Below the pieces are notes generated by a model. That model was not told the origin of the DNA. It was given only the letters and a program-made list of their open reading frames with translations, and ran no database searches. A stretch of 64,000 nucleotides of DNA, from NCBI GenBank assembly GCA_040954595.2, contig CM082588.2, positions 4,466,156 through 4,530,155 of the forward strand. Direction: 5' to 3'. The position numbers and the translations under genes are program-made. Positions 1 to 37,305 of this stretch are shown piece by piece; the stretch's first letter is position 1, and every line of letters begins with the position of its first letter. This DNA is from Balanoglossus misakiensis (taxonomy: Eukaryota; Animalia; Hemichordata).

Positions 1-1064
1 ACAGAGAAAAAGACCCAGATTATTACTATAGTAGGAAGACCACAAACTGAAATTTAAGTTATGTTCTGTCCACAAACACACAAACAATATTACCACTCAC
101 TTTGCTATGATTTACAATTTAAGTATTTACATCAAATCTTTATCATACTCAAGCCCTGGGTCAATTTTATTTTAACTTATATTAATTACATGTATAAGTT
201 ATGTCATGTTTAGAAGACTTTTAAAAATCTAAATTAAGCAAATGTATAAAAGAATCAATTTTTTTTATTATTAAGGACAAAGTTGAAACCTTATCAGACT
301 GACTTTCACACAGGGCATATCTGACTTTATTTTATAATTATGTTTTTAGATTTTAATCTGAACATAATTTTGACCTGATTTTCAAATTAATCATTGCATG
401 TTAAAGATCAAATGAATGAAACAAAAGCAATTGCGATTTTATTGGCACGTTTAGCAAAATTCAACTAAACTCTAAATTTGGAACATTTCTGTGAATGAAA
501 GAAATTAAAAGCCAGTACAAAGAAAAGAATATAAAAGATGAAAGTTCAACATGGAAGGTGAATATGATAGATGATGGCGACGACTGATTCAAATTTGTCA
601 ATTTGTAAAGTTCATCAGAGAAATATTGTTTTAAGTTCCTGATGACATAACTTCATGAGCCTTTTCTCCACTTTTAAAGCAGAACAGGACAACCAATGCA
701 TATTCATCATCCACTAACTTTTGGTAGGCGGAATACATTCAGTGTATACAAAATAATCTGAAGGCACGTAAGATTTTTAAACAGACATTTGACAAATTTG
801 AAGCAGTCTTCTGTGCAAAATGTTAGCACTACAGAACAAGAATAGTCCATTGCAGGTTATCTGACAGCTTTTTGGAGACCCCCCTCATCCCCTGATTGCA
901 TAATTTATGCAGATACCAACAATTACACGGCAAAGGCTAAGACAGATAGCCTTCGCTGGTATAACACTGGTACTACCACTTTGCATCAACCCAGCTTGGT
1001 GTCTGCAAAGCATTCTTTACACTGGCATTTCTCTATGTGTAAACTCAAACTCAGGTCAACAAAA

Positions 1065-1104
1065 TGCCAGGATGTAAGGGTCACATAGGGGTCATGAAAG
1101 TGGC
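1065..1104. repeat. Dispersed repeat fragment, second copy at 61272-61311
   Basis: TGCCAGGATGTAAGGGTCACATA(G/A)GGGTCA(T/A)GAAA(G/A)TGGC; 37 of 40 positions identical between the two intronic copies. Confidence 0.7.
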
Positions 1105-1262
1105 CTGTAGGTGATGCCCAAACATTTTCTGCCAAGGTTGCTGTGTGTTTTGATTTGGAATATATGACGGCCCAGCACAGACAATCTCTGCAAAGGACTA
1201 CTTTCGCACAAGAGATGAGGTGAATGGGTCAGAGAAGCCACGCTTGGAGGATATCTACTCAC

Positions 1263-1432
1263 CCCGAGCACATTGAACCGGTGACAAATGATCCATCCCA
1301 TCAACCAGTCTATGTCATATTTGTGGTTTAGTATCACCACGCACGATTCCTTACCCAAAGCATCGAACAACGGTGCATCGGAATAAAGGATGCAATCGGT
1401 GCCAGAGAACCACTCGGCTAGATACACCATTT
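1263..1432 (-). CDS. AGPAT alternative catalytic exon B (QMVYLAEWFSGTDCILYSDAPLFDALGKESCVVILNHKYDIDWLMGWIICHRFNVLG)
   Basis: TAGCAG acceptor with pyrimidine tract and CTGAC branch-point candidate near 1457, GTGAGT donor, 170 nt, phase 1 to 0, NHKYDID motif, no stops. Confidence 0.88.
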
Positions 1433-2685
1433 CTGCTAGGACAACAAGGAAGACGGTCAGTGATATCGAGTGTGCAGGACGTGAAGTGCACCAGCCAACA
1501 GACAGTTGGAGATCTTTCATGGCGAGACTCAGTTATCTCACATGTCAAGCATGTTGCATTTGTGACCAGTTCCATGTACAAACAAATTGCACATTGACTA
1601 CCCAGTTTTCTGTGTCAATACCAAGCTAGTTACGATTGCTTGAAGAGTTTCAATCTGATTAAAATCAGATGTAGGGAACGGCAACATGTTTTTTTTTATG
1701 CTGTGTGAGGTGACAGCACAAAAAAATCCACGTCGCCATTCCCTACATCTGATTTTAATCAGATTGGAAGAGTTTGTGAGTCTGTCATGTTCTTTTTAAG
1801 TTAAAAAGTCATTGTACACGTGAAATTCTACAAAACTGGACACTGTGGCTGCGTTTCTGACTGAGTCTCGCACTGAAAAAACAAGCGACTGTCTGTTTCC
1901 TAGTCCAGGGTCTTTGGGACTCCCATACTTACACCGAGAATACGAAACCGTGAACACAACGTCCAACCCAGCAACCAATCAATTTCATAATGATGGTTCA
2001 TCATGCACAAAGCACTCTCTTTCCCCCACTGTTTGCTGTCCTCGTCGGTCTCATAGAGCACACAGTCAGAGCTAGCCCACCACTCACATGTGAACACCAA
2101 CTCTTCGTAGAAACAAACATGGGGGTTATTAGCAGTATGGAGATAGACACACCTCTCTTTTTTAATTACCGACTCTGACAGTAACAGCATCATAAACTAA
2201 ACTAGACTAACCACACATATCATCTGTGTTCAGTATCATGGTTGTCAATACTATACTACCAATGTTTGTAAACATACACAGTCTGTGTTGACAAGCTGAT
2301 CAGATGATAACCTTAACATGCCTCAATGGGAAGTACATGCAAGAGTAACTGAAACAGATTGTGAAAATATCGCAACGATTTAAAACACTACAGCCACTGT
2401 CCCTTTGAAATCTCAATCGTACCAAAACATAATGCAATCAAAACATAAAGCCATCACATCTTTTACAAGTTTGACGTGATTTCACAGATGAACACCAGAC
2501 TTACGGCTCCAATGCAGGTTCGCTAGAAAGCAGTTGACGCGTCTGCAGAGATCCTTGTGAAACGGCCAGATCACCAGCGAACAGCATTGCAGAAGGTTAA
2601 TGATGATACCACTGACGATGAAAGTGTAGCCAAACAGAAGTAGGCCCAGACACAAGATGATGGTCTTGAAAAATCCCTTAAGCAT
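1263..2685 (-). CDS. AGPAT3/4: 1-acylglycerol-3-phosphate O-acyltransferase, AGPAT3/AGPAT4 family (5' part; the gene continues beyond position 1)
   Basis: First coding exon 2685-2505 (MLKGFFKTIILCLGLLLFGYTFIVSGIIINLLQ...LHWS, donor GTAAGT, phase 1), followed by two alternative 170-nt exons (2102-1933 and 1432-1263), each with the NHx4D acyltransferase motif I. Probable 5' UTR exon ends at 4184 (donor GTAAGT). No later exon recognised in 1-1260. Confidence 0.92.
1651..1766. mobile_element. 116-bp MITE with terminal inverted repeats and a 9-bp target-site duplication
   Basis: Perfect 28-bp TIR CAATCTGATTAAAATCAGATGTAGGGAA / TTCCCTACATCTGATTTTAATCAGATTG, continuing imperfectly inward; flanked by direct repeat GAAGAGTTT at 1642-1650 and 1767-1775. 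Confidence 0.85.
1933..2102 (-). CDS. AGPAT alternative catalytic exon A (QLVFTCEWWASSDCVLYETDEDSKQWGKESALCMMNHHYEIDWLLGWTLCSRFRILG)
   Basis: AAG acceptor, GTAAGT donor, 170 nt, phase 1 to 0, NHHYEID motif, no stops. Confidence 0.85.
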
Positions 2686-4183
2686 GACTGGATCTCTCGG
2701 CTACGTCCCGGTCAAAGATGAAAGATTATAGTCTGGTCAAAGTTCTCCTGATGGAAAAGGTAGATTTGAGAATAGTTAAACAAAGAATATATCTGTTTCC
2801 TTGTATACTGGTTGTATATGAGTGCACTCAGACCACAAATGTGAGGCCAAAAAATAAATTATTATCGTATGGTGGTTCCTGATTCTCGACCTTCCCATTA
2901 GTTTTTTTCCTGAATATCAACTTACACTGAACCATTAACACAGAAAGGAATAATACCGGTAATCTGAATGTTTCTGTGGGCCAAGAATCTGCGCTACAGT
3001 ATGTCTTATAGCTCAATTCACGTACCTGCCATGTGGTGTTTTCAGTTTTTAGACTTTGAACTTTAGCACCTGACCTGTGTTCAACCATGCTAGTGTGTGA
3101 CGAATGAAATCGATATCCCTATCTTATCATGGTGACATAATGACCCTTCTCTGTAATAACCTCACATATAACATTCCGACTGGAGTTGACTAACCTGCGA
3201 CAGTTTGAACTATGATGGGAATAGTCAATACTACTTACTGGTACCTCCTGTGGTAGAATATAATGCTATTGTACAACTTTGCATGCCCTGGCAGACTGCC
3301 AGCTAGCAGGTCAAGGTGACCTCTAACAATCGCAACAGAGTGTCATGATCACAGTGAACATTTATTACACCAAGATGATCTACTTGGCTGTGCATACTTT
3401 GGTGTTGATATGTAGCATGTACATTGTATACGGTAATCATAGCTCTAATTTGCCTATCTAAAGATTTGAGAATGAGATGGCCTTCTGCAGCCCACATACA
3501 GAATGACACTGAATGATTTTTCCATTCATGATCAGGAAAAAAAAAGCGTACTGGTGATGATGTTACTTCATGCCACAAAGAAATCAAGTGAAATGTCAAT
3601 ACAACTAATCAAATTATGCTTAACATTCTAACAAATTATCCATGAGAGATACATGAAATCGATAATAGTGATCTAACATGCCTTTTGTGACTAGCTGCAA
3701 AGGTCAGTGTAGTCTGTCTAGCCCTGAATGATCACGACATCATGAAAAGTGAAATGGTTTAGCTTTTTATCAAATACCAACAAGCCCGTGTTCAAAACAA
3801 ATGCGTGAACTTGGTCGCATACCAGTGTTACTTTCATGTACATCTCAAGATGTTCATTTCGGAAGGTGGGCGTGACCGGTCGAGATCGAACACGTTCGCG
3901 TTTGTGGCACGGTGTGGTAATCGATAATCGTGGTCTTGCAACTGGTCGATTACACTGTCAACATCTTTTCGAGTACTGCTATGTAGTTTATGAGGTCACC
4001 GTTGGTTGTGAAAAGGTCAGGGTACCCACTGCAAAACTTCGCCTTGTGTGTGCAAAATGTGTAAACATCCCAGAGACTGTCATGACAGTTTTACCACTTC
4101 ATATGGTTCGTTTTACAAGATGACACGCTCTCAATATATTTATCAATATCACTTTATACCCAATCAACCCCAAAAGTACTTAC

Positions 4184-4795
4184 CAGGCGTCAACAACAAC
4201 GCGATCGCGTTGTAAATGTTAGAAGGGCAGACCACCTACCGGTATATTCTCTGCGTGATCCTGTCCTCGATTGGTATTGCCTGTAAACATACCGATTAAC
4301 GGCACCTATACAGAACACAAGTCTTTGACTATACTGTTATAATATTACACAACACAAAGTGAAATTGCTTTAGAGTGGTAAGTCAAAATAACCTGTTTGC
4401 ATGTGATATTTTCATCAGTGTGCGTACTTTCTATCTGCGATATTTTTGGAAAACGAAACGTCGCAATTTAATTGCGTCTATTCAACCGTAAAGTGGTATC
4501 GTCATTGAAGACTGGGCAGGATAAACCTGGTGTACAATATGGCTGTTTATTTATTTTCAGATTTAATAAAAAAAAATAACCATGAAGAAGCAGAATGATT
4601 CAGCTTCACTTGGATAAGTTACGCATTAGAAAACGTTAAAGTTCATAGTTTATGGCTAGTTATTACGTATACAAAACATTTTTGAAGGGTGTGTTTTTAT
4701 TTTTACTCACTTGAGGGATCATTTCTTGTTGAACTGATGCAAGACCAAGCACATTGGTACTGGGACGTGTATTCGAAGTACAGAAGAAACATCTG
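4184..4795. promoter_or_regulatory. Putative bidirectional promoter with the non-coding first exons of AGPAT (-) and YARS1 (+)
   Basis: Minus-strand donor GTAAGT after 4184 and plus-strand donor GTAAG after 4795; matching acceptors precede the first coding exons (near 2748 and 5246); CpG-enriched relative to flanks. Confidence 0.55.
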
Positions 4796-5264: not shown

Positions 5265-8200
5265 ATGGCAACTGATGAAGAGGTGAAAAGGAGACATGAG
5301 TTAATCACCAGGAACTTACAGGAAGTTCTGGGAGAGGAAAGACTTCTGGGTTTATTGAAGGATAAAAGAGACATTAACATATACTGGGGAACGGCAACTA
5401 CTGGTAGGCCACATGTCGCATACTTTGTGCCAATGAGTAAAATAGCAGACTTTCTCCGTGCAGAATGTCATGTAAGTATCATTGATCTCAGTTTAGCCTT
5501 GTAAAAGTCACTTATACATACGGTAAACAGAGGTTAATATGAGTGATATGAGAAGTGAGTTAGGTACATTCATAAGTGACAAGATTCAAGATGTCCTCTT
5601 TTTGTCTCTGGTTTCCTAGGTGACCATTCTGTTTGCAGATCTCCATGCCTACTTAGATAACATGAAAGCACCATGGCAACTGCTTGAGTTGAGAACACAG
5701 TATTACGAAGTGGTGATCAAAGGAATGCTGGAGTCCATTGGCGTGCCTTTGGAAAAACTCAAGTTTGTCCGGGGTACTGACTTCCAACTGAAACAGTAAG
5801 TCTTGGGGTTCACTGTCTGCGTACTGATGTTCAATCTAAGTGTGAGTTTCATCATTGTAAAGTAGGAAGGTGTATTGTTCTTGGGACATGGTTCGAAATG
5901 AGTGACATTACTGGTACATGTACTGTATGTTTTTTAGAGAATATCAAACTATCTAACATCCTGTGGTCACTGACATGTCTGAGATATTCCAAGTCAACCA
6001 CAGCCCTTTACACAACATATCTGGTTATCATTGCAGGGACTACACACTGGATGTTTACAGGCTTTCATCAATTGTTACTGAGGTAACTATTATACCAGTA
6101 TTCAGAGAGGCTACATCAATTCATTTTCCATTTTGATCATCTAGGCACAGAACATATAATTTTGCCACTGCTTACATAGATCTCCAGATGTGGGCATTTC
6201 TGTAGACATAAACAACAAACGCTTTGTATATGATCTTTTTCTGCAGCATGATGCAAAGAAAGCTGGTGCAGAAGTTGTCAAACAAGTGGACCATCCATTA
6301 CTGAGCGGTCTGCTGTATCCAGGGTTACAGGCACTAGATGAAGAATACTTGAAAGTAGACTGTCAATTTGGTGGTGTTGATCAACGGAAGATTTTTACGT
6401 TTGCTGAGAAGGTAGGAATATATTTTGTCCTCATAGTCTCTGGTTGCATGACTGACGTGTACTTGTACGTGAAACAAACTGTCTGTGTAAAAGAAATTAT
6501 GAGTAGAATATTTATATCATGAGTGAGCATACATCAAGCTCAGTAAAAAAGTCCTGTCAAATGGTTCTGGATTCGAGACATGGAGGTACTTGTTAATATA
6601 ATTCTTCCTGTATGTGTTCTGTTCACAGTATTTGCCACATCTAGGATATGCCAAAAGAATTCATCTGATGAACCCAATGGGTAGGTCACCTTTGTCCAGT
6701 TTTTTATCCTTAAATTAATGGACATACAGTTTGAATATATTTATCATTGGTGGATGTAATAATGTAAACACTTTCTTTTGCAGTTCCTGGTTTGACGGGA
6801 GGCAAAATGAGTTCTTCAGAAGAAGTAAGTACATCCCTATTCCCAAATTGTCCATCCATCCTTCAACTGGTCCCAACCAACCACACCCGCCCATCCACGT
6901 ATCCTGTCATAACATTCATTCTACCACATCCCATATTCTTGTTCATTCTATAACTTCGACAGGAATCCAAGATAGATCTTCTAGACAGCTCTGCAGTTGT
7001 GAAGAAGAAATTAAAGAAAGCGTTTTGTGAGCCAGGCAACATAACCGAGAATGGTGTCTTATCCTTTGCCAAACATGTCATCTTTCCTCTCTTCAAAGAA
7101 GACGAAAGTGAGTCATATATCTGTATAATGTTCTGTAAGCCAGACAACTGTTTTGATGTCTACAGAACTAATGGCATACGTAGATGTACTTAGATAATTC
7201 TTGATTACTTTCCCTGTATTGTTAGAATTTTTAATCCCAAGAGATGAGAAGTTTGGTGGATCAGTAGAATACGCAGACTTCACTTCGCTGGAAGAAGCAT
7301 TTGGCAAGGAAGAAGTGCACCCTGGGGATTTGAAAAATGCTGTTGAAAAGTACCTGGGAAGGCTACTTGATCCAATCAGGAAGAAATTTGAGGAGAAGGA
7401 AATGAAGAAGCTTAACAGTTCAGCCTATCCACCTCCAGCAAAGACAAGTAAGTTTTTACCCTCTCACCTTTTTGGTGGTATGGTTGATTCCATTTGCTGG
7501 GAAATGGGGGATGAGAAGACCAAAGCTAGTGGAGGCATCATTGGGTGGAAATATTTGTCACACAGTCAGATTTTTTTGGTTGTCAGTGTTGATGTGACAG
7601 GATTGGGATATTTTTTTATTCACAGAACCTGGTAAGGGTGGTGCGAATGCGACAGTTGAGGAAGAAATCTCTCCAGCAAGACTTGATCTGAGAGTTGGAA
7701 AAGTGACATCCGTGAGAAAGGTAAAGAGGGGAGAGAAAAAGATTCATGGGAGGGAAGGGGGAGACAGGTGTGAGGAGGCAATATATGTGATAGACAAGTT
7801 TGGAATTAAGGTCTGTCACTTGTGAATCATCTACTCTGCCAGCTAGTTATTCGCTCTCATGGCATCTTCTGATTTGTCCATCAGCATCCAGATGCAGATA
7901 CTCTGTACATCGAGGAGATCGATATTGGTGGTGATGAGACGAGAACTGTCGTCAGCGGACTGGCCAAAGTTATCCCGATGGAAGAGCTTCAAGACAGACT
8001 CGTCGTCATGTTGTGTAACTTGAAGCCGCAGAAGATGAGGGGCGTGGAGTCACAGGCCATGTTGATGGCTGCTGCGAAGTAAGTTGCCACTAGGGGGCGA
8101 TGTTAAGTCTAGCGCTGTTCACCACTGGATATAAGCTTAATATTTCTCATGTATTGGCATCACTGTTATATTTTGATGTGAGGTGTCACATGTGAATACA

Positions 8201-10583: not shown

Positions 10584-12815
10584 TCACCAGTGGTTCTGAG
10601 CCAATCGATCCAGTGTGAATCCATAGTCGTGAGACGAGACTGGTCGCTCCGGTATCGACGTTACAGATCGGTTGATGCTGTGTTGCTGCTGCCCGATGTA
10701 GACCCGCGACCAGCGCGTTTTCGCCGGCGCCGACCTCGGCCGCAGGGTCGGGAACATCACTTTCCCCGTCAGGGGATTGATGCGGTCGATGCGCGTGGGT
10801 GCGGATGCGACGCTTGAGCGACTGTTGCGCCCCGGAGTGGTGTGGAGGGTGAAACTTTGCAGCGTCGAAGTCGATTCGTCGAGTTTGCTGTTAAAAGAGG
10901 ATGATGATTGTTGTAGTTCTTGCATGTGTGAGTACGTGGTGTCGGGAGAGTGCGACAAATGCGCAAATTTGCTCGGTTTTCGACCGAGAACAACTGTGGT
11001 GTTCTTATGAAGTTCTTTCCTCAGTCGAGCCAAAATTTCCGACTTGGTTGGAGGCTGGAAAAGTCTACTGGTTGCCTGTGGTCGGCACAATTTTATCGGA
11101 TGCATTTTATGCGGGTTAAATGTTCTGTATACCATCGTCCACTCGTCCCGCGTCCCGACGCTCTCCGTGTGCGACAGGGCACTTCGGGAGCTGAAACTTG
11201 ACTGGGGACGGTGCACGTGAGACTCTCTCCCGGAGGGGAACGAACGCGGGGACTGGGGCTGCGGTCGCTGGTACCTCTGCTTCAACTCCTCCGTTTTCTC
11301 GAGAAGCGCCGACATCAAGTCCGATGCGTGTCGGTCATCGAGCACCTCCCCCGGCAGAATCGCAGATTTTTCCGTCGACACTTCGTCGAGTCTCTCCGTG
11401 CTTTCTGTGGTCGTCACCTCGGAAGTGGTAGTACTGTCGATGATGAGAAGCGGGTCGAGGGAAAGTAGGAACTCGGAGAGACGCAGCGTGCCCTTCGGGC
11501 GGTGGATTTCCAGCATCTCGTCAAGATCCTTGTCAAGGAAACCAAAACTCGACAGACATTCTCGCAAGATCTGAGGCTGTTGCCGGAATCTCTGTATCTC
11601 CCGAGCGGCGTCGAAGCGACAATCCCGGTCGACGTGGCTGTACAGGTTGTACTCTGGCATGAAGAAATTCGGACAGAATCCTTTCAGGAGACAATTTAAC
11701 ATGTCCTCCAGGAGATGGAGAACGCACACAGCCCCCGGTGTGTCCTGCCAATATGTCAGAAGATGCTTCTCACAGGCCCACAGCATGACAGTTTTAAGAT
11801 AGTACGGGTGCAGGGCATGGCGAACATTGCAGTTTTCGTCGGAGATTTTCCGGATGACCGATTTAAGGCACTGGTAGATGCCAAGCTGTTTATCGTTCAT
11901 CATCCGCATCAGTTCCTTCTCGACATGCGCAGTGCAGATGCGGAAGAGTATTCCGTCGGAATCGTAGTCCGCGGAGAGCGGCTTTGCCGTCACATGATAC
12001 CCAACCCGACGGAGGCGGTCCAGTGACCGGCGTGGCGGCCACTGTCGGCGGCGGCTGAACCAGCCTTCCGCCGCGGACGGCCATCCTTCGCACGGAACGC
12101 AGAGTACAAGATCGGCGTTGGCTTCGTGGCTTTCGGTGGGCATTTTGAAGCCGGCGTGACTTGAAATGAAAGACGTTAAGGTGTCCTGATCCAAGAGGGC
12201 TGATATGGACTCCTGGCGACACTTGTCGAAAAGTCTTTTCTGTAGCTTGGTCGACGACAAGTAGAAGTTGTTTCTATCGTCGTCTGTGAGGTAGACGACG
12301 TAGTCCTTCCAGAGGGACACCATGTCTTTCTTAACTTGGACGTGAATGAAACCCGGGAAATCTCTATTCATTTCCAGGGCCACGTTCTTTTGCTCTTCTA
12401 TGGTAACAGCGATGTTGTCCAACACGAGCATCAGGTCGACGTCGACGCCTTTCGTGTCGTCCGTCACGGTCTCGCTGTCCCCCAAGAAACTCGTTTCCGT
12501 CACCATGATGCCTTTCAGTTGAAACGGCGGCTTGTCGTCGAAGATGGCGTGGTACTTCTCCAGCAACATGTCGTGCTCGTGCTCGGAGTACGTGTCCTCC
12601 TCATCGTCCGCGTCGTACTGGTTGTCGCCATAGAAACCGTTGCCCCGCTCGTACTGCTGCACGGTGTCGTCGCTGACTGACTGGTCGTCGGGGGTCATCT
12701 CGCCGTTCGCCAAATCTGGAGCCACCCAGCACTTCCGCGTCTTCCCGTTCTTGGCGGCGACGTCACCAACTTTCAACGTCTTCTTGTCGTCTTGATTCGT
12801 CTCGCTTTCCGGCAT
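10584..12815 (-). CDS. Mab21/cGAS-like (cGLR-type) nucleotidyltransferase-fold protein, about 743 aa, with an acidic N-terminus and a long Ser/Arg/Pro-rich C-terminal tail
   Basis: Single long ORF; first in-frame ATG at 12815 (the ORF track's TTG start is preceded by an in-frame TGA). Mab21 hallmarks: DVDLMLV, DLVLCVPCEGWP...WFSRRRQWP, GYHVTAK, FRICTAHVEKELM, YYLKTVMLWACE, CPNFFMPEYNL. Acceptor at 12905-12907; possible upstream UTR exon ending at 15128 (GTGAGT). Confidence 0.85.
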   Translation of the reverse strand: MPESETNQDDKKTLKVGDVAAKNGKTRKCWVAPDLANGEMTPDDQSVSDDTVQQYERGNGFYGDNQYDADDEEDTYSEHEHDMLLEKYHAIFDDKPPFQLKGIMVTETSFLGDSETVTDDTKGVDVDLMLVLDNIAVTIEEQKNVALEMNRDFPGFIHVQVKKDMVSLWKDYVVYLTDDDRNNFYLSSTKLQKRLFDKCRQESISALLDQDTLTSFISSHAGFKMPTESHEANADLVLCVPCEGWPSAAEGWFSRRRQWPPRRSLDRLRRVGYHVTAKPLSADYDSDGILFRICTAHVEKELMRMMNDKQLGIYQCLKSVIRKISDENCNVRHALHPYYLKTVMLWACEKHLLTYWQDTPGAVCVLHLLEDMLNCLLKGFCPNFFMPEYNLYSHVDRDCRFDAAREIQRFRQQPQILRECLSSFGFLDKDLDEMLEIHRPKGTLRLSEFLLSLDPLLIIDSTTTSEVTTTESTERLDEVSTEKSAILPGEVLDDRHASDLMSALLEKTEELKQRYQRPQPQSPRSFPSGRESHVHRPQSSFSSRSALSHTESVGTRDEWTMVYRTFNPHKMHPIKLCRPQATSRLFQPPTKSEILARLRKELHKNTTVVLGRKPSKFAHLSHSPDTTYSHMQELQQSSSSFNSKLDESTSTLQSFTLHTTPGRNSRSSVASAPTRIDRINPLTGKVMFPTLRPRSAPAKTRWSRVYIGQQQHSINRSVTSIPERPVSSHDYGFTLDRLAQNHW

Positions 12816-13269
12816 GATTGTATCTTTTGATTGTGGAATCTTCAAGGCGATCTTCTTTAATACAAACGCAGCCAATCTTCACTCACTCTTCCATGGTTTG
12901 GTACCTGTAAGACAAATTCATGACAACGGGTTATTGTAACTAGAAATACCGATGAAGAAAGGTATACTGCTGTCATTATTCAACTCTACGTCATGTTTTT
13001 ATCGCTGACGTACCATGCCGGTAGGTGCATTTGTCAATGATAAACATTTGTCAAAATGAAAATAAATCACTCGACGCTGGTTTCGACCGAACGGTAACAG
13101 TCGAACTGACTTCATAGAATATACAGAACCCAGCAACGACATCCCCCGGACATGCGAGGATCAAGTAAGATTACCCGAGTAAATTTTCACATACCGATAA
13201 CAGGTGTTCTTTTTATGATGGACAACTGACCATTGACCATTATGATGGTGAAAACTTTAGACATTTAGT

Positions 13270-17327: not shown

Positions 17328-18539
17328 GTAAATATACTGCGTTTTGTATTCTGAATTTTACGTTGTTCGTGTGTGCGGCGTACTGGGGCTGATAACAGGA
17401 CGCGTGCGTATGACGAAATCTCCGGTCATAGACCTTGAAGACTGATATACATGCTCATTTAAAAATATTTTACAGGAGAAATAGTGGAGAGAAATCCGAT
17501 TCATCCCATTAAGACGTGTACGTGCCGTATTCACATTAGCGACACGTCAGACTACGTTTTCTATTCGGTTTCTTCCGTAGAGAACGCGTTTACAATAGCG
17601 CGCCGGCCGGCTTTTCAATGACAAAAGGAAGCCGGTATCTCGACACGTTTTGCGTTCTTGCGTACGTTGTCCGCTATATCCACTACCCCAAAAACGTCCA
17701 CCGTTTCCAAATTACATGAAAACCCCATCGATGAAATCGTATGCTTTCTGCGCGGCGGACAGTTTCATATTTTATAGCGTGAAAAATGTCCGCATTATCC
17801 GTGTCTGGCGCATGATCACTGACGTACGCAGTGACAGCCGCGCCAGACTCCCTAAGTATGTTGTCGATTTCAGATACGTTGATAATGCAACGTGCCATGG
17901 TAACGCGAACAATTGCTACAATGCGCGCTGCGTTAAGCGTTAATCGGCGGAAATCGACATGGCTTTTCCTACTAACAGATTTACCAGAAATATACACGGC
18001 ATTTCGGCCATTAGACCATAGACAGTATATAAATCATGTCTTGTCACCGTGACTTGAGACTTCAGTCTGATTTATTTTTCCGTCGTGCTGAGAATATATG
18101 TATGCCTACTTCAAGTTCGTGTTTTTTAAAAAAAAGTTAGCAGACTAACTATGCGTTACGCGGATTTTTTTTACGTTTCGATAGTTTAATAACTCGTTTC
18201 CATGTCTGGTATCTATTATAACTTGGTCTCCGTTTCAAAACTTGGCGGGCGATTGCCGGCCTCGGCGTGATTGCATCATTGTCGTTGCCACCCACAATCA
18301 GCTTGTCAATGGCATTGTTATTCAAATCAAATAAGGGATGAACCAAGCTTCCCCTTCTCACGCACATCTTTGTTCTCCACGACAGGCGCTGTACGGACCG
18401 GACGGATGGGGGATATGAACTAGCCGACCCGCCAATATTCCCCGCAAGATTTTGTTTGCCCGCAGTCGGGTCGTCCGGCGATGAGTTTCGAACGCCGGCG
18501 TTCTGACAGTCGTAGCTGTTATTGAAAAATAGACATAAG

Positions 18540-21500
18540 ATGGGGAAATTCGAGAAACACCGAGACGAGATCGAACCGGAGACGGAGCGTCGGATCACCG
18601 GCCTCCGCCCGCATCACGTCCCGCCCGAAGGAGGGTGGGGGTGGGTCGTGTGTACCGCTTCGTTCTGGACCAACGGGACGATTTTCGGGATCTTGAACTC
18701 ATTCGGAGTTCTGTTGGTTGCGATGCTGGATGATGAAACTCTCAAGGAGTCTGGAGCCGATGCTTTTAAAACATGTAAGTTTACAGACAGTGTAATTCAC
18801 ATACGGCTTTATATTATAATATGTACACGCATACACGCCATTTTCAAGACAGCACTAGAAAATTGTCCCGATCCTCATGACTTTCGTCTGAAATAATTAC
18901 TTTAAAAAGTATGTGTTTGTGAGAAGAGATATGTTTACAACGTAACGCTGGAGTCGCATTGATTAAACATGAGAATATCCATTACCAATATGTGAATTTT
19001 ACACTGACTGTCACCTTTACGCCTACGTACCCGCTGCGATCAGCTGTTATCTACAATCGACCGGCTTTTGCGCGACGCGTTGCAATCAGCTGGTCTAAGC
19101 ACCTTTTGTCCTATATGTGGTCTGTATCGTTAATTAACAATCGGGCTATTCACAAGTTCTTGTTTACTGAAACGTCTTTCCCTGATAAAGTATGAGAACA
19201 TCAACAAATATTTGGGTCCACGTCTGACATAAATAGCGACAAGAAACTCATATATGTATGTGGCCGCATTTTGTGTTTTTTTTCTCCGAAAAAGACGCAC
19301 AGTGAATGAATGAGCGTCTTCGATCATTTCTTCCCATTCGATGGTTAAGTATAATCGAGATTACATAACGATCTGCGGGTGCCGCATTGTCTTTAAACCC
19401 CAGTATTCTTTGTTGGCTTTCGAGGCCTACTAACACTGCTATTCAAAATCCCAAGTTCATTTACACGTACATACACCCTGATTTGACGGCCTGAGTTGTT
19501 CGTGCGTGTTGAATCTCGTTAACATACAATGCATATCGCCTGATTCGCTATCGCCCTTCAAACCGCATAAAATATTAATTCGCGATGCAAATTGCATTCA
19601 CGAGCCCATCCTATAAATTCATTCAGTCAAACGCTTCTATTTGGGAAAGCAATATGTGATTTATTAACTCTGCAAACCATCCCATATCTGCCTATATTGC
19701 GATAACAATTCTTCAAACTTTATTTTTCCAGACATTCTAAAGTATGCACTTATGTTTATGTCAATTTCGAAAACTTGACATTTCAGTGCGCAATCTGTGT
19801 ATTCACCCTGACCCACAAAGTCCTTAATATATGTTACCTTATCATTCACGGATCCAGGGTAGACTTTTACCAAGGCTAACTTATTCGTTTATTAAAAGAA
19901 AAGTTAATATTTGCACCATTTACTCACGGTCGATTTACTGGTAGGCCTACTGTACTAGTGCGCACATTCATGGTTTATACCCAAGTGTCCAACTTGTTTA
20001 GTGTTCCAGCCGTACGTGTTTTTCGCATTCGTTCCCGCACTAGCCAGGTAGTGTGGGAGCGAAGGCGAAAACACGTACGGATACTATTTTACCAGTCTAC
20101 CAACTTGGGTATTTCGGTGTTTTGCAATTGTCTACGTCCACATGCGTTCAGACCGCATACAGTGGCGTTGATCGTCGTGTCATGAGATACATTACAAACT
20201 GGAAAAACATATTCCTTTGGACACAGTGGTATTAATTTGGAGTTAGACGGAGAAAAATAACTTTACCACGCGTCCGGAGGGTGGGCGCGGGCGCGGGCGC
20301 GCGGGGAATGTCCTCTGCGGTATGACCCCAAGGTGAACCTTGACGTCACACAGTTTAAAGGACCGCCCACACATATAGCGCACATCGACATCGTGGCCGG
20401 GGCGCCGGCCGGTTACAAGTACTTTTACTAGTGTACATGCCCGAACAGTAAGATCATGGTCACCGTGCTTTTACATGTAGTCATATTCGACTTCAAAGAG
20501 GTCTTAAACTGTAGGAAAACGAGAGCCACGTTACATACAAGAATCCAATTACAACGCAGACATAGTCTGTAATCACGTGATGAAATTGATCCCCTGTTGT
20601 TCAGTTCAGTGAAATCACTGTCGTAATCGCTTTCACTGTACATGCCTCGGAACAAACAGACCCCACACCCTTCTAGGGTCAATGCCCTGTAAAAGTAGAC
20701 TCAAAGACGTAAGCTGTAACTCACAGGGAATCGATCCCCAAACTATACACTGGACAACGGTTACTAGTAACCGTGACTGGACAAAACACTGCATCATGAT
20801 CTTGTATACCTGAAACCCCCACACCCCTGAACTGTGTAACAATCCCATTGATAACTGTAATTCAGATGGACAGTACCACAATAATCGTGGGGGGGGGGGG
20901 GGGAGTCACAGTCTGAACTCTCGGGGAATTGTGACAGGTCAACTGTGTAATTTTGGTGGGGTGTTAAGTTGAAGGTCCCAACGTATTTTTGTTAAAGATG
21001 AAGCATAACAATAGCAGTTTATGCATGGCTGCATCAGCTGGTACTGAATGACCTTGACCATAGCAGTGGAACAAGCCTTTTTCAGTTTTCCAGAACAGTT
21101 GAACCTTGCGATTGTGATATTGCGATTGTCCATCTTATAGCCCTGTTAAAGCAAGCAAACAAAAAGATAAAAAAATTTAAACAAATAATCAAACACACAA
21201 ACACAAACAAACAAATACAAATAAAAAATAAATAAATAATAAATAAATAAATACTAATAAAAGGTATATAACTTTAATCTGAAGCTGACTGACATTGCAT
21301 AAATACACAAAAAAACAAATAATATTTTCTGTAACTTTTTAACCTTCAACCCACTTTTAAGTGGGTTTATTTTACATACTTGATAGTCAATCTTTGGAAT
21401 TGGGATGGCATTGTCCTTCAGATACTTGAAATAATCTCAACTGATTGCACTCAAGTACAAGTACTGCGTAATATACCAACCATGGTGTGTTGGATCACTT

Positions 21501-24500
21501 ACAAGGTCAAAGGTCACTCAGATTACAAGGCAACTTTGAACTCTGGTTCACCTTGGTTTTGCAATAATAATCGCTATTAATAACTATAACTAGGTGAGAT
21601 ATTGTGCTGGACAAATTGAGAACATGACATTTGGATTATTATTTCTTCATCCTGCTTTAAAAAGGACCATAAGATTTAATGATATAATATTTGCAAAGAA
21701 GCCAGCATCTTTGAATAATAGTTTTGCAGTAAGCACAGCCACCACACATGTTAGAGACTGTACAAAGTGTGGTCTTTATCAACAATATAGTAAACAATTA
21801 ATTCAAAATGTAACCCGGTGCTGAGTGTAACTTAAAATTATTGACCAACGCGTGTTCCTCTTGACTTAAGGAGGAAAATTGGTGTAATTTGGGATCAGAC
21901 GATCTGATACATCATCCATCTTGTCTCTGTTATCTGGTGTTTGTAATGGGCTTGTCATTCATAGTCTAATGTACAGCCATAGTGCATGTTGTTTGCGCCA
22001 TACATTAGGGCGAAATATTGGATAGGCCCTTTGCAGAGTTCACTTTTCTAGGAGGGTGAGCCATTGTGTGACTGTATGTCTATGGTAGTATTTGTTGTAT
22101 GGACAAGAGACTATAAAACTGTCTGGCCAGGATTTAATCAGGAAAGTCATCTGTGGGTCAAATCAGTCGTAAAATTCAAAGTTTTGGCGAACCACTCCGC
22201 CAGGTATAATCTTTGCTCTTCGAAATCCACTGAGACCAGGGGCACTAATGTGTGTGACCGTACTTTTCCATGTACGTGTTACCTGAAACATTTTTTATGC
22301 ATCGTCTGTTTTGGAATTTACCATCAATCTTTGAGACGATCACGATAGATTTGCTCATGAAATCATTGATGAGAACTGTCTTTTCATATATGTACAGGGG
22401 AGACACTTCTGAATAAAGAACAAATTTAGCAACCTATGTTTATTTACTGTTTGGGAATCCAATAAACACTTGAAAATGTATTTTTAGGTGAAGATTACAG
22501 ACTTATCTGCTTCCAGGACAATAAAATATTTATTTTTAGAACACATGTTGCTGTTTTTAACCATTAATTGGTTGTAAATTGCTGGGGTGTCTCTCTAAAA
22601 CGGGTGATAGGGGACTAGAAACCTCATTATGGTGCATTTATTGTTAATAGCAAACTATACAGGGGGCAATGGTCAACAGCAGATGATGGAAAGACTAGAT
22701 AAATGTTTGACCGCTGTTTGACCACAAAAACAAGATGTGCATTCAGTGTGATAGCTAGTTGTCAGTGGTCTTCTTAGGAAGATTTTTTTAGAAAACATGT
22801 CAGGTATAATGACTGTGGTGAACTGTTTGGAATTAATACGGAATGTCACTTTGAAATGAGACTACAATATAGTGCCTTTAAAAGTGTGAAAAAGTAAAAG
22901 TGATCGATCCAAAGAACAATAATTTTTGTTCACTTGGCCTTAAAGATGCATATCCTGCAAGTCAGGACTGGCTTTGAATGAAAGCATTCACATGTTGGTC
23001 AAGTGTATTTTTTCAGTTGACCCTTAACAAAAAGAAAAAGGAAGAGCTATGGCGGCGGAAGTCGGAAGAGTGCCCTACATACTGCGTCCGGCAGGAAAGT
23101 TGTTGCCAGGGAACCTTGCCTCATTTGCATGTTTGTATTGTTTCAAAATGGCCTTTTCAAAGTGACCTTCTTTTTCGCTCATTAAAACAAAACGCACTTT
23201 TACCTTCAGTTGCTGCATTTTGGCAATTATCTAGGTCAATTCCAGGGGGAGTGGTTCTGATTTTCATTTACATACAATGGTGGCGACGTCATTTAAATGC
23301 ATGGATGAATAGTTGTGGTAAACAACCCTATTTTTCGTACCAGCGCACAGTTTTTAGTGTCAATCAACGCTTTCTTCTCTTTGACATCATTTGAACAGCT
23401 GATGTCTGTTGTTGTGTTGTCTACATCAGAAAGAACTTGTTCCTTTGTATTATTTTTTTTCAAAAAGTTAACTGTAAGCTGTTTTCTCAACCTTTCTGTC
23501 CTGGCCTGTTGGATCAAAATAAAATTTATATGGCTAACAATATTTGCAACTGCACTCCTGAACTGAGATTAAACCCTTTCACCACCATGGTTCAGTCCAA
23601 ATCCATTGTTTTCTATGGTAAAGTTGGACCTCTACACAGAAAACCAGGGGTGAGAGGGTTATGAGTACAATCTTTATTCAGAAGTGATGGTTAATCTAGG
23701 ATAACAAACACAGAGTTGCTGAGTCAGCATGGTTGCTTTTCTATCTGATAGTCACAATGATTGATTGACATGTTGTGATAAAAATGACAAAATTACTGTG
23801 ACATATGAAAGTGTTGAATTCAGCCTCTGACAGAGTGCACTATGAAGGGGTCACACTGTCATACATGTACCTTTTCAATATTCTGAAGGCTAATAAACAC
23901 CATTTTCAGTGTGAACAGATGATCATCCGATATTGCAGATATTGTGAACTATATTTAGAAATCATGTGATGTGCAACTTGATGGTCAGCTGAGGGAATTG
24001 TCAGATTTCCGTATTATATAGCTGTGCGACACACCCCTTCCAACGCCCACTACCGGGTAGATCTCCTTCATCTGGAGCTGGGGGTGTGTGAGTGTCGCGA
24101 TTTGACGAGCGCATAGTCGGAATTTAATGAGCATGCACACGGCTTATAATTCTTGGGTTGACCTTGATGTATTTCTTAAGGAAATTTATTTTATAATCAT
24201 GTAACAGTTGAGTGGTTTTTAATTGATGACTGATTTTCCTCAGTGTACACTTGACTTTCCAAGTTTGGTAAAGCATACATGCTAAGAATGGTCCTATGAA
24301 CAGAGTGTGTGCATACGTGCATGTATGTGTGTGTTTGTGTGTAGTGCGGCTAATATATTTCATTCACATTAGTTATAGTCTGCCACTGACTACTCAGTTG
24401 AAAAGAAGTTGAATCCCAAGAGGGATCATTGAACTTTGTGGTCGCTCAGTGCTCTCTTCTGGTAAACAACCTTCATACAAAATAATAAGTAAAAATAATA

Positions 24501-27500
24501 AGCATGTTTATCGAGTTCAATCTATATGCATCTGATGAGAAATGTGATGTCGATTTTTACTTCATCTATTTTTGTCAATTCTCATTCTCTGCGTGCTTGT
24601 GCTTCTTATATCATATTCCGTTTAATTATTTCATAGTTAAATAACAACACATGATCGCCAGAGATCGATCTGACACTGTGATGTCATTGGTCCCAGAGCC
24701 CAAGGTGACACTATCATGATGCCTGACTGAGACAATTCTGATCATGCGTTCCAAAGTGTATGCATGGCTAGAAATTTCCGACAACAGACTGTCCAGCAGG
24801 CAGTCATGGACGTGATAGAGCAAAGGTTGTGGACAAGGGACACACTCAGTCTGTCTCCCAAGCCATTTGTATACAATAGTCGATCTAGATGTTGACTGGG
24901 CCAATTACAAGAAACTGATTTTTTGTTTGTATTGGCAGATCATAATACCATGGTTACTAAAAATGCTGTAATAGGGAACTAAATCTCTCAGTTTAATCAT
25001 CTGGCAGTTTTAATAAGCCAAGTCCCACAATGCACCAGTACAGGAAATGGGTGATGTAGTTCATCAAAGAATGATGTAGGGTTGAAATGTTATATCAGGA
25101 CAGAAGTATAAATTAAATTGTAATTGCAGTATTTTTGTTCTATTTTGTATCTGTGACTAATTTTATTTTATTTTTTAATTTTTATTTGTAGCGTGGGTTG
25201 GCTCACTGACTGTAGGCTTAACATTCCTGTTATCACCTTTGGCGAGTATCTTAACGGACAAACTTGGCTGCCGCAAAACTTCTCTCATCGGTTCTGTTAT
25301 AGCTTTTGTGGGCTGCATCTCCAGCTCGTTTTCCCGGAAAATTGAAATCTTATTCCTGACTTACGGTATCATTCTGGGTACCGGTTTCTCATTGACCTAC
25401 ACGCCATCTCTTGTGATCCTCGGCCACTACTTCAAGAACCGGCTGGGTCTGGCGAACGGCCTGGTCACCGCGGGCAGTGGACTCTTCACGATCGTCATAC
25501 CCATCGCGCTGGAGTACCTGGTGAAGGCGGTCGGGCTTTGGAACACGTTGCGCTTCATCAGTGGGCTCGTCTTTCTCCTCATCCCGTGCTCGCTGACGTT
25601 CAAATCTCTGCTTCCCCCGGGGCTGAACTACGGCTCGACCAGCAACCTGCGAGTTTACAGCGGATTCAAGGGCTGGGTTGCTCGCTACGTCAATGTGCAT
25701 ATTTGGAAAATCAGGAACTATATTATCTGGTGTGTTGCAGTGCCCATTGGACTGTTTGGCTATTTTGTCCCCTTTGTACATTTGGTAAGTATTATATACT
25801 TATTTTACTAAATTGTTCATTATCAGGAAATTTTATTAAATGTGAAAATGACATATGTCAAAGACTGGACAAGTGACAAGAAAATGGGTAGACAATTGAA
25901 TATGCCATCCAACTTCAAGCTGTATCTGACAAAACATGAAACAGGTGTTACTAATATCATATTTCCTGTGAGATTTATCCGTTGTCTGATTAAACCTCAT
26001 GCAACACCAGTTAAGAGAATAAACCACAATGCATGTGTGAACTTTGGTCGTTCGCAATTTTTTGTATCCAGGACAACAGTTAATATCATAATCTACACTT
26101 CTGTTCACAATACTATGCAGTAAATTATTTAGTTGACAAAAGTTAATTTTAGTGAAATATTTACTAAAATGTGGACTTTTTTCATGGTGTGATTTGATTA
26201 TATCTGATTTATCAAAATGTTAATATGGACTTCGACTTGGATTATCAGTTAGTGTTCAAATGTATTGGACTTTCTAAATGGCTGACTGGAAGAGTTTCTT
26301 TTGAGATTTTCATGTTTTGGGTAATTTTGATGAAATTTGAATTGGTTTGATCGTAGAGATGTTCAATGGAACAACAATTTTGATTTGAATTTGAACAAAA
26401 CTTTGGCGATGACTCATCTTGAGTGATGGGTGAAACCACAGTTCCTGAAGAATTAAGTGTATAGAAATTCTGAACAAATACAAGACAAGTGTACTGACAT
26501 GTATTTTCGAGTGTTTGTGCAAATCCTGTGGGAATCATTATCTCAAGGAGAACAGCAGTATCAACTGTAACAGTTTGCCTAAAGTTTTATCCGTCAATTC
26601 AAAAACCATGTAAAGATATGATTACCTGGGAGAATGTTGATTCAGTGATATCGGTAAACCTCTAGTCAGCAGAATTAATAGGCTTATTTGTTCAAAACTC
26701 AAAATAGATATAAACTTTGTACAGAATAGTCAAAGTCGGTTCAAAGGCTGATAAAGCCTTTCACAAAACCCCCAACCCCCTCCCCTCCCCCCCAATTTCA
26801 AGTGTGTGGATGGACCTGAGTCGATCTATTGCAATGTCAGGTGAACCACAATGCAGACTGGGAGGGGGGGGGGTCACCTCGGATTGGGGCGCATAATTCT
26901 ACATGTATGCTGTGGTGTGTATGGCATACATAACTAGTATGCAGGGCCAACAAATGTATAGCAGCTAGGTTATGAAGGGACATTTTCCATCAAGGTACTA
27001 GGTGGAAACAGTGGAAAATTCCTTCTTTCATATCTGCAGCCCAGTTTTGATATGCTGTACGCAAGGTCATCGAATGTGATAGAGCAGACAGACTGATAAA
27101 TCAGCTGACTGTCACTTGATTGGCTAAAGTATATTCTGGGTCATACATTTGAAATAAAGACCTTCAGCCAGAAAAGGGCCATGAAAGATTCCAGGCTATC
27201 TGTACACAAATATGCAATGTTGATAAGCTAGATACTAGGCATATTTTGTACCTCGAGGAATTGAATAAGAAATTTCAATTCAGTTCAAAACTAGTGAAAC
27301 AATAATATTTAATAGAGTTATGGAGATTCAAATAAGTAATATGAATTTCATGTGCTACCTATATGCAGGATTTTTGTGTTTCTCAGATAACTGCAGACTT
27401 TTGTTCAATATAAGGATTCCAATGGGGTTAACATACTTTTTAAAAATGTAATCTGAATAAGAATGATTTGATTATTGCCCCTAAGCTTATAATTGGATTG

Positions 27501-29019
27501 TACCACATTTTATCAGATGTTATGGAATCCTACATAATCTATAACCATTCAAACAGTAGCTATCTCGTTTAGGGTGGAGCAGATTGATTTGTGATAACTT
27601 GAACAGTAATGCAGTAACCTATCAGTTGGAGAATTAGATTTCTTTGTTTCTGCTCTGTTTTATGTAAACCTTGCAATTGTGTTTTCAATATGCATCAGAC
27701 TAGTACATCAATCTTTGGGCCAATAAAATTTAATTCTTTTATTGCACATCCCTGCACTTTGTACAATTATCAAATATTTGATTTTGGTCTAAGAAGCACA
27801 CTGACAATTGTTTTGATATAGGTGACTGTGAGTACATTATATGTGTGTAAATATAACCCACAGATTTTAGATACACAATTGTAATGCTACTCAATTTCTT
27901 TTCCATAGTAACGCCATTTCTTTATTCTTTGACAGATCAACCATCTGAAGAATGTTTTGCCAGCAGCGAACGGCGCAGTCCTGATAGGAGCGTTGGGAGC
28001 AACATCGATGGTCGGTCGATTGGTGTTCGGCAAAGTAGCGGACATTCCCCGGGTCAATCGCATCGTCCTGCAGCAAGTGTCCTTCCTGGCCATCGGCGTC
28101 ATCAGCACGCTCATCCCCATCGCCGCCTCGCACTTTGCCAGTATCATGTGCGCGGTTCTAGTCATGGGCATCTTCGACGGTTGTTTTGTGTGCATGATGG
28201 GGCCGGTGGCTTTTGATATTGTTGGTGCTGAGAATGCCTCCCAGGCGGTTGGCTTCATTCTGGGTATCATGTCGATACCACTGACTGTGGGACCCCCTGT
28301 TGCAGGTGAGTTTCCATTTTTATATTATTTTAAATGTTTGGTTTAATATTAATCATGTGCATGTATTTCATTCATTCTTTGGCTTCACTGGTTTGAATGC
28401 TCAGTGATATTCCGTGGTCGATTTTGACATCCTCTGCCGTTCATAAGAAAAGACCACAGCTGTTTACAGGCAAAGAATTATCCCCCCCCCCCCCCCCCCG
28501 CAGCGTTACATTAGTGTATTTAGCGCCCTCAATCTCATGAATAATTCTTTTGTTTTTACAGGTCTGATCTTTGATATGACGGGATCATATAATATAGCCT
28601 TCATGTTAGCTGGAGCACCGCCGATCATAGCGGCGTGCATCCTGTTCCTGATAAGGCCTGTTGAGCACATCACCCATATGCCGACGACAGAACCTCTGGA
28701 ATACTTACAGGTTTCCCGGGAAGATCTCCTGAGCATTGACACCGACACCACCAAGAGGTGGGAAATCCGGCATCATCTGTCGCCAGCGCCAAGCCACGAC
28801 AATCTTCTGCATATTAACGGTGGCATCAGCCATGCCGATAAAAAGACTGCAAACGGTATTGGAGAATCACACCACCACAATCACCACCACCACCACGGCC
28901 ATGAACTTGCTGCGAAGTTAATTAAAACGCTCAACGGTCACGTCGCTGCGGGAGAGACATCGCATCAAGCTGAAGAAGACGAAATGCTGTTGGTCTTTGA
29001 CAGGGTCACTGTGGTTTGA
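18540..29019 (+). CDS. SLC16A10: Monocarboxylate transporter family SLC16, MCT10/MCT8-like (aromatic amino acid / iodothyronine transporter clade), about 551 aa
   Basis: Exons 18540-18774, 25192-25784, 27936-28305, 28562-29019, phase consistent. Motifs PPEGGWGWVV..SFWTNGTIFGILNSFG, YTPSLVILGHYFKNRLGLANG, FGYFVPFVHL, GRLVFG, FDGCF, GPPVAG. The symbol marks the SLC16A10/SLC16A2 clade, not one-to-one orthology. Confidence 0.9.
23572..23660. mobile_element. Short MITE-like element with imperfect inverted ends
   Basis: Left AACCCTTTCACCACCATGGTT versus reverse complement of right end AACCCTCTCACCCCTGGTTT; TTAA on the left only, so no clean TSD. Confidence 0.5.
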
Positions 29020-36930: not shown

Positions 36931-37016
36931 CTCTCTCTCTCTCACTCACTTACTTACTCACTCTCCCTCCCTCTACTCCGTCTCCCCTTTCTCGCTCTAT
37001 TTCTCTCTCTCTCTCA

Positions 37017-37047
<31 letters not shown>

Positions 37048-37050
37048 CGT

Positions 37051-37085
<35 letters not shown>

Positions 37086-37160
37086 GTCACACACACACCC
37101 ACTCTCCCATCTCCACTTAATATGTTGGGTTCTCTCTCGGTCTCTCTCCCGTCCCACCCT
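36931..37160. repeat. Compound (CT)n/(CA)n microsatellite
   Basis: Direct reading of the sequence. Confidence 0.95.
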
Positions 37161-37305
37161 CCCTCTCTCCCCCTTCTATCACTGTTTATGCTTGTGTGTC
37201 TGAATATATATATGCTACCTGTACCACCATACTTTACACACACGTGTACATATACACACACAAACACGTACACAGAATACTTACTAAGCTAAATAAAAAT
37301 TCTCA

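What the first reader, a model, noticed from the sequence alone, without database searches (positions are those of the whole stretch)
1263..2102. Tandem duplicated, probably mutually exclusive exons encode alternative active sites of AGPAT3/4
Seen: two homologous exons (2102-1933, 1432-1263), each exactly 170 nt, phase 1 to 0, open and with good splice sites, follow a single upstream coding exon that is not duplicated. Including both, or neither, shifts the frame. Known: the NHx4D motif carries the catalytic His/Asp of glycerolipid acyltransferases, and equal length plus equal phase is the signature of mutually exclusive exons. Inference: one gene makes two enzymes with swapped catalytic modules (NHHYEIDW vs NHKYDIDW), possibly with different acyl-CoA or lysolipid preference. 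That would parallel by splicing what vertebrates do with the paralogues AGPAT3 and AGPAT4. I do not know of this being described, but could not search.
Basis: partly seen in the sequence, partly recalled or inferred. Interest (0 to 1): 0.85.

Follow-up and report, generated by a model that had tools for sequence, protein, structure and literature searches.

The report
Swappable catalytic exon in AGPAT3/4 enzyme
An invertebrate gene for a membrane-lipid-building enzyme carries two intact copies of the exon holding its catalytic histidine and likely splices in one or the other, as public amphioxus gene models do, while a predicted RNA stem between the copies may help keep them apart; this is a new example of a known kind of splicing.

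Summary
Observation confirmed: two 170-nt, phase 1-to-0, open exons follow one coding exon, and joining both gives an early stop. No RNA of this species was available. Support comes from relatives. In 4 of 4 Branchiostoma X1/X2 protein pairs only this segment is swapped. An annelid/mollusc-type contig holds one whole gene with this exon twice, and both copies there are under purifying selection. New here: the two ends of the 500-nt spacer intron pair over 36 predicted base pairs (0 of 500 shuffles; 0 of 699 GC-matched controls). This leaves about 56 unpaired nt between donor and branch point, near the published ~50-nt steric limit. Corrections: both copies keep the same His/Asp pair, so the active-site surroundings change, not the catalytic residues. 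Exon A is not an AGPAT3 or AGPAT4 orthologue (p-AU 0.025, 0.004). Different substrate preference is untested. Independent versus ancient origin is unresolved. The scan noted similar cases on other DNA (LPCAT exon pair; UBR2 and dynein intron stems; unchecked notes). New member of a known kind.

The parts
2505..2685 (-). First coding exon (ATG to phase-1 donor), single copy; encodes the N-terminal membrane helices of an AGPAT3/4-family enzyme
   Evidence: one tblastn hit in the window; up to 55.5% identity to a vertebrate AGPAT3
1933..2102 (-). Exon A, 170 nt, phase 1 to 0, motif I NHHYEID
   Evidence: keeps 14 of 16 family-conserved columns
1263..1432 (-). Exon B, 170 nt, phase 1 to 0, motif I NHKYDID
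   Evidence: keeps 15 of 16 family-conserved columns
1433..1932 (-). 500-nt spacer intron between A and B (GT...AG)
1860..1906 (-). 5' arm of predicted long-range RNA stem, starting 26 nt after the exon A donor
   Evidence: I7, I8; 36 pairs with probability over 0.5
1488..1533 (-). 3' arm of predicted long-range RNA stem, ending 30 nt before the candidate branch A
1456..1460 (-). Candidate branch point of exon B (CTGAC, A at 1457, 25 nt from the acceptor); motif match only
1642..1775 (.). 116-nt MITE-like hairpin (1766-1651) with a perfect 9-bp target-site duplication, inserted in the loop of the stem
   Evidence: (I1)

Best explanation
One AGPAT3/4-family (LPLAT3/4) acyltransferase gene carries two intact tandem copies of the 56-residue exon that holds catalytic motif I, and it likely splices in exactly one, which would give two enzymes with the same His/Asp pair in different surroundings. 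Shown: exon anatomy, frame, constraint on both copies, and the same layout in relatives. Inferred steps: (1) A-only and B-only mRNAs are both made in this species (about 0.9). (2) A-B joining is suppressed because the ends of the spacer intron pair and bring the A donor to about 56 unpaired nt from the B branch point, too close for both to be engaged at once (about 0.5). Any double-inclusion message carries an early stop and would be removed by nonsense-mediated decay. (3) The swapped segment (end of the second N-terminal helix, two strands, the motif I loop and the following helix) tunes lipid-substrate preference or activity by tissue or stage (about 0.5).
For: Anatomy and early stop on double inclusion. 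4 of 4 Branchiostoma X1/X2 pairs retrieved differ only within residues 62-116 or 73-116 (25-26 differences) and are identical elsewhere. Between B. floridae and B. belcheri the two exon versions are 55/57 and 56/56 identical, against 294/323 for the rest. Locus L011 has one first exon, two copies of this exon with AG/GT ends and the same phase, then single downstream exons; L009 has the same two copies. dN/dS between L009 and L011 is 0.081/1.72 (upstream copy) and 0.062/0.64 (downstream copy). Stem: -59.6 kcal/mol, 0 of 500 shuffles as strong (z -4.2). 0 of 699 GC-matched and 5 of 2,493 total pseudo-introns elsewhere in the window reach it, all 5 in a GC-rich ORF. 35-37 pairs persist when flanking exons and introns are added. 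A MITE sits in the loop, not in the arms. Models of both amphioxus isoforms fold alike (mean pLDDT 89), with the exon starting inside a helix.
Against: No spliced read from this species was seen, and the downstream exons are outside the window. The amphioxus isoforms are database gene models; neither their read support nor their genomic DNA was seen. For B. lanceolatum only the X2 type was retrieved (2 records). The 56-nt path is slightly above the ~50-nt limit quoted in PMC5740500 and PMC7969005 (passages). The stem windows were chosen after the repeat was seen; in a blind 30x30-nt scan the stem scored only -26.1, inside the range of 14 control stretches (-20.7 to -36.7). No such end-to-end stem is found in L009 or L011 (z 0.38, 0.25), and no covariation could be tested. 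Reviews assign motif I to catalysis, motifs II/III to acceptor binding and motif IV to acyl-CoA binding (PMC4280512 passages); PMC6688108 links motifs I and III to the acceptor. Neither shows this segment setting acyl-chain choice.
Confidence: 0.8

Rival explanations
1. The exons are mutually exclusive only at the mature mRNA level (frameshift plus decay, or splicing proteins), and the intron stem is the decayed terminal repeat of an old transposon or otherwise incidental.
For: The intron has taken at least one transposon. The stem is absent in L009 and L011. [quoted passage not shown]
Against: No target-site duplication is visible at the outer arms and no other copy of the arms is in the window. 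The arms stop 26 nt from the donor and 30 nt from the candidate branch A.
Confidence: 0.4
2. One copy is a recently silenced or never-used pseudo-exon, and only one isoform is made in this species.
For: No transcript of this species was seen. dN/dS between A and B is 0.40, less strict than between orthologous copies in L009/L011. Exon B has Phe at a Trp position invariant in 31 single-copy homologues.
Against: Both copies are open, indel-free, with intact splice sites and 14-15 of 16 conserved columns after dS of about 1.5. Both forms are annotated in amphioxus.
Confidence: 0.08
3. A and B belong to two tandem gene copies, or the pair is an assembly artefact.
For: Whole-gene tandem pairs of this family exist: 11 of 63 metagenome loci. 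The window's downstream exons are not visible.
Against: Only 500 nt separate A and B, with no first-exon or downstream-exon homology in between. 46% nucleotide divergence excludes haplotype duplication. L011 shows the single-gene layout in full.
Confidence: 0.02

Closest known systems
Tandem duplicated exon substitutions in metabolic enzymes: ACSL6/ACSL1 fatty-acid Gate exons (PMC1543647, passages), ACOX1 and KHK (PMC9741552 passages; PMC8373072 passages and supplement rows)
   Same: Homologous either/or exons that cover part of the active site while catalytic residues stay conserved (stated for KHK in PMC9741552); recurrent, convergent origin is documented for the class.
   Different: A different enzyme family. 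AGPAT3, AGPAT4 and LPCAT have 0 occurrences in the one supplementary table of human events searched; no isoform activity has been measured here.
Branchiostoma AGPAT delta-like RefSeq isoforms X1/X2 (XP_035686308/XP_035686310; XP_019617143/XP_019617145)
   Same: Same gene family and same swapped segment; X1 has NHHY like exon A, and X2 has NHKY like exon B.
   Different: The window's gene is not a Branchiostoma gene (first exon 36% identical). Exon A is equally close to X1 and X2 (30/56 each) and only one column is fully concordant, so copy-to-copy orthology is not shown.
Vertebrate AGPAT3 and AGPAT4 (LPLAT3/LPLAT4) (PMC8753187, PMC4280512, PMC6688108; passages)
   Same: Same family and motif I; the exon boundaries match genomic read-through hits.
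   Different: Two genes, not two exons. They form a separate clade, and most sampled members of both carry NHNFEIDF or a one-residue variant; exon A is rejected as sister to either.
Steric-hindrance mutually exclusive exons (OGDH 4a/4b, PMC7969005 passages) and RNA-structure-controlled pairs (ATE1 R1/R3/R4, PMC7797038 passages; serpent, PMC4691838 abstract and passages; FGFR2 as cited in PMC9198270)
   Same: A short effective donor-to-branch distance or an intronic duplex keeps duplicated exons apart.
   Different: Here the branch point is at the normal 3' position and the distance would be shortened by a 47-nt duplex. No competing docker/selector partner above background was found, and nothing was tested experimentally.

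Membership tests
AGPAT3/4 (LPLAT3/4) acyltransferase | Motif I NHxxxxD | tested here: met
   Present in both exons; weak PF01553 hits below cut-off on the 56-residue pieces
AGPAT3/4 (LPLAT3/4) acyltransferase | Best named relatives are AGPAT gamma/delta proteins | tested here: met
   495 hits at E up to 0.001; of 20 hits looked up, the 13 clusters with a name are AGPAT3/4-type or hypothetical
AGPAT3/4 (LPLAT3/4) acyltransferase | Motifs II-IV and the Acyltransf_C domain | not testable with these tools
   Encoded beyond the window edge; Acyltransf_C present in the amphioxus homologues
AGPAT3/4 (LPLAT3/4) acyltransferase | LPA acyltransferase activity | not testable with these tools
   Needs an assay
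Mutually exclusive tandem duplicated exons | Neighbouring homologous exons, same phase, similar length, one gene | tested here: met
Mutually exclusive tandem duplicated exons | Junction reads bridge each exon, with no productive joining of both, in this species | not testable with these tools
   No reads were available; indirect support from 4 of 4 Branchiostoma isoform pairs
Mutually exclusive tandem duplicated exons | Both copies under purifying selection | tested here: met
   A/B dN/dS 0.40; orthologous copies in L009/L011 0.05 and 0.10
Steric-hindrance exon pairs | Donor-to-branch distance under about 50 nt | tested here: inconclusive
   The linear distance is 476 nt (not met); the unpaired path with the predicted stem is about 56 nt; branch point not mapped
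Docker/selector competing RNA structures | One site with two alternative complementary partners, conserved | tested here: inconclusive
   Candidate competing helices of -13.5 to -26 kcal/mol are within background; no close relatives for conservation
One-to-one counterparts of vertebrate AGPAT3 and AGPAT4 | One exon groups with AGPAT3 and the other with AGPAT4 | tested here: not met
   A+AGPAT3 p-AU 0.025, A+AGPAT4 0.004, B+AGPAT4 0.068; B+AGPAT3 not run

The most novel reading that the evidence does not exclude
The motif I exon of animal AGPAT3/4 has been duplicated into an either/or pair at least three separate times (this species, amphioxus, an annelid/mollusc-type lineage), while vertebrates and a rotifer-like lineage duplicated the whole gene. 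This 56-residue segment is then the switch that sets which fatty acid or lysolipid the enzyme takes. One lineage keeps a strongly conserved copy with Glu in place of the catalytic Asp, and in this species exclusion is enforced by an RNA duplex that shrinks a 500-nt intron to the steric limit.
Probability: 0.25. Interest if true: 0.72.

Novelty: new member of a known kind. Interest (0 to 1): 0.5.

Why it matters
What sets acyl-chain choice in AGPAT-family enzymes is poorly mapped. AGPAT3 sets DHA-phospholipid levels in sperm, retina and liver of mice (PMC8753187 passage), and the only solved relative found by sequence was bacterial PlsC. Isoform pairs identical except for 25-31 residues around the catalytic His are ready-made domain swaps that make the question directly testable. 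The spacer-intron stem offers a clean test of whether RNA folding alone can create steric exclusion in a long intron.

Tried and rejected
No whole genome is held for this window. No RNA holder was listed for 200-4400 (no evidence either way). Word-index searches with exon A or B alone found nothing; the profile search did. No relative in genome contigs or viral contigs. The Atlas gave no result. The whole-intron folding z of -8.8 is dominated by the MITE hairpin and was not used as evidence for the outer stem. Rfam hits on the hairpin are far below gathering score, so it is not called a microRNA. Eleven two-copy loci that first looked like exon pairs are whole tandem genes. L038 has a partial repeat of the exon's first half and was not counted. 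Nine other isoform or record pairs show no swap of this exon: Pecten, Ylistrum, Oculina, Styela, Haliotis, Mytilus trossulus, Anoplophora, Anthonomus, Patella. Six loci with flanking exons show one copy only (L007, L014, L015, L029, L036, L037, in which 25 of 63 loci were printed). Candidate competing helices did not exceed background. A FastTree grouping of A with B (0.72) was not repeated in the careful tree. AU tests reject neither A+B (0.276), A+X1 (0.464), B+X2 (0.117), L-upstream+X2 (0.217) nor L-upstream+A+X1 (0.166); L-downstream+B was not run. The window's phylum could not be fixed: it falls outside the vertebrate, amphioxus, annelid/mollusc and pancrustacean clades, unresolved. The first neutral simulation had an extra constraint and was replaced. 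The L009 and L011 intron slices were each off by one base at one end. PMC5711460 is not held.

Full report
Observation. On the minus strand, a 181-nt coding exon (2685-2505, phase 1) is followed by exon A (2102-1933) and exon B (1432-1263). Each is 170 nt with AG before and GT after, open in one frame, ending in phase 0. Either exon alone continues the frame; both together give a stop after four codons of B. They share 92 of 170 nt without a gap and 25 of 56 residues; differences fall 25, 18 and 34 on codon positions 1, 2 and 3. tblastn with three full-length homologues over all 64 kb gives one first exon, A and B, and otherwise two hits at E 0.3-0.4. The rest of the gene lies beyond the window edge.

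Family. A profile of A and B matched 495 of 1.84 billion representatives at E up to 0.001. Of 20 of these looked up, 13 clusters carry a name, and all are AGPAT gamma/delta-type or hypothetical. Genomic read-through hits show the same exon limits. Both exons carry motif I, NHxxxxD, whose His is the general base and whose Asp supports it (PMC4280512 and PMC6688108, passages). The window's animal could not be placed: its N-terminal region sits outside the vertebrate, amphioxus, annelid/mollusc and pancrustacean clades, without support for a sister.

Are both copies alive? A and B keep 14 and 15 of 16 columns conserved in 31 single-copy homologues. dN/dS between them is 0.59/1.49. In simulation, a neutrally drifting copy with half of the observed differences stays open and keeps these residues in under 0.1% of 50,000 draws. 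Against this, B has Phe at an otherwise invariant Trp, and no read of this species was available.

Evidence from relatives. A search with an alignment returned 162 proteins (120 listed), among them Branchiostoma isoforms. In 4 of 4 X1/X2 pairs (B. floridae, B. belcheri and two further Branchiostoma annotations) the proteins differ only within residues 62-116 or 73-116, that is within this exon. X1 has NHHY, X2 has NHKY. Both versions are more conserved between species (55/57, 56/56) than the rest of the protein (294/323). These are database gene models; that such models usually rest on RNA-seq is recalled, and I saw neither reads nor genomic DNA. For B. lanceolatum only the X2 type was retrieved. 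Nine other pairs from molluscs, a tunicate, a coral and beetles show no swap here.

Of 63 metagenome loci, all scanned with a profile, two (L009, L011) have two full tandem copies of the exon with AG/GT ends and the same phases. L011 shows the whole gene, with one first exon and single downstream exons. Between L009 and L011 both copies are strongly constrained (dN/dS 0.05 and 0.10). Eleven loci are whole-gene tandem pairs, and six with flanking exons have one copy (25 of 63 loci printed).

Origin. In a 58-row, 56-column tree, vertebrate AGPAT3 and AGPAT4 form one clade (100/98), the two amphioxus copies group together (95/74), both L copies fall in the annelid/mollusc clade (95/84), and A and B are unplaced. 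Exon A is rejected as sister to AGPAT3 (p-AU 0.025) or AGPAT4 (0.004); B with AGPAT4 is not rejected (0.068). The free tree favours independent duplications, but none of five alternative groupings was rejected. Exon A is equally similar to X1 and X2, and gene conversion could blur old copies. One ancient event remains possible.

How exclusion may work. The spacer intron is 500 nt. Its ends are complementary: 1906-1860 pairs with 1488-1533 over 36 base pairs with probability above 0.5, and 35-37 pairs remain when flanks are added. The duplex of the first 90 and last 110 nt is -59.6 kcal/mol. It is reached by 0 of 500 shuffles, and by 0 of 699 GC-matched and 5 of 2,493 total control stretches of the window. 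It leaves 26 nt after the A donor and 30 nt before the candidate branch A at 1457, about 56 nt in all; the steric limit is quoted as about 50 nt (PMC5740500, PMC7969005, passages). A 116-nt MITE-like hairpin with a 9-bp target-site duplication lies in the loop. Limits: the windows were chosen after the repeat was seen; a blind 30-nt scan does not single the stem out; L009 and L011 lack it; no covariation could be tested. An old transposon end is not excluded, though no target duplication or second copy was found. I give the stem about even odds of a role; the frameshift with decay is the fail-safe (inferred).

What the swap changes. AlphaFold models of amphioxus X1 and X2 (mean pLDDT 89.1 and 89.6) have nearly the same secondary structure. 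The exon covers the end of the second long helix, two strands, the motif I loop and the next helix. The nearest solved fold is T. maritima PlsC. The catalytic residues are the same in A and B, and the motif differences lie within ordinary orthologue variation. The swap therefore changes the setting of the active site, as described for KHK and ACSL6 exon pairs (PMC9741552, PMC1543647, passages). A change in substrate preference is plausible and untested; no pocket mapping was possible. In L009/L011 the upstream copy has Glu for the motif I Asp yet is conserved. That change abolishes human AGPAT1 activity (PMC4280512 passage), but 1 of 31 single-copy homologues also has it.

Literature. Ten searches were run. 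The five aimed at this enzyme family listed no paper whose title or abstract start describes an AGPAT3/4 exon swap; I saw listings only for most hits, including all five. AGPAT3/4 is absent from the human tandem-exon table searched, and 'AGPAT' from the main text of PMC5740500 and PMC9741552. Subscription papers, bioRxiv supplements and the datasets of PMC5740500 were not seen and could list it. Earlier notes of this scan describe a similar motif I exon pair in LPCAT and similar end-to-end intron stems in other genes; these are unchecked, and I had found the stem before reading them.

Verdict. A real, constrained tandem exon pair that is very probably mutually exclusive, already implicit in amphioxus annotation, apparently undescribed in the papers searched, and of a well-known class. 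Interest 0.5, from the recurrence across animals, the natural domain swap for testing lipid selectivity, and the intron stem.

Noticed in passing
L009:419-591 and L011:1650-1831: The upstream exon copy has Glu in place of the motif I Asp (NHKYETE) in both loci and is under strong purifying selection (dN/dS 0.05): possibly a low-activity or regulatory isoform.
   Followed up: partly
L009:383-398 and 726-735; L011:1616-1631 and 1980-1989: Two short intronic words are conserved on either side of the upstream exon copy (15 of 16 and 10 of 10 nt identical) and are partly complementary by eye; the pairing was not among the best predicted duplexes.
   Followed up: partly
window 1642-1775: 116-nt MITE-like hairpin with a perfect 9-bp target-site duplication; no other copy in the window.
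   Followed up: yes
proteins P0173-P0176 (Pecten, Ylistrum): Scallop AGPAT3/4 isoforms X1/X2 differ by what look like duplicated alternative last exons.
   Followed up: no
proteins P0358 and P0287 (Anthonomus): Weevil isoforms differ by homologous alternative N-terminal segments, residues 2-63, suggesting a duplicated first coding exon.
   Followed up: no
L001, L003, L004, L040, L043, L045, L050, L051, L052, L055, L059: Whole-gene tandem pairs of AGPAT3/4 with short introns (rotifer-like by my impression, not tested), with motif I NHKYDID or NHKYDVD in the first gene and NHRYEID in the second.
   Followed up: partly
window 5265-7635 (+): A tyrosyl-tRNA synthetase-like gene starts about 2.6 kb from the AGPAT start codon on the opposite strand (head to head).
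   Followed up: no
window 10584-12878 (-): A 764-codon uninterrupted ORF with Mab-21 nucleotidyltransferase and Mab-21_C domains.
   Followed up: no
window 32100-42000 (-) and 56300-60800 (+): Several 5'-nucleotidase-like gene copies (read from ORF translations; one metallophosphoesterase Pfam hit), and an MFS transporter gene at about 18500-29000 (+).
   Followed up: no
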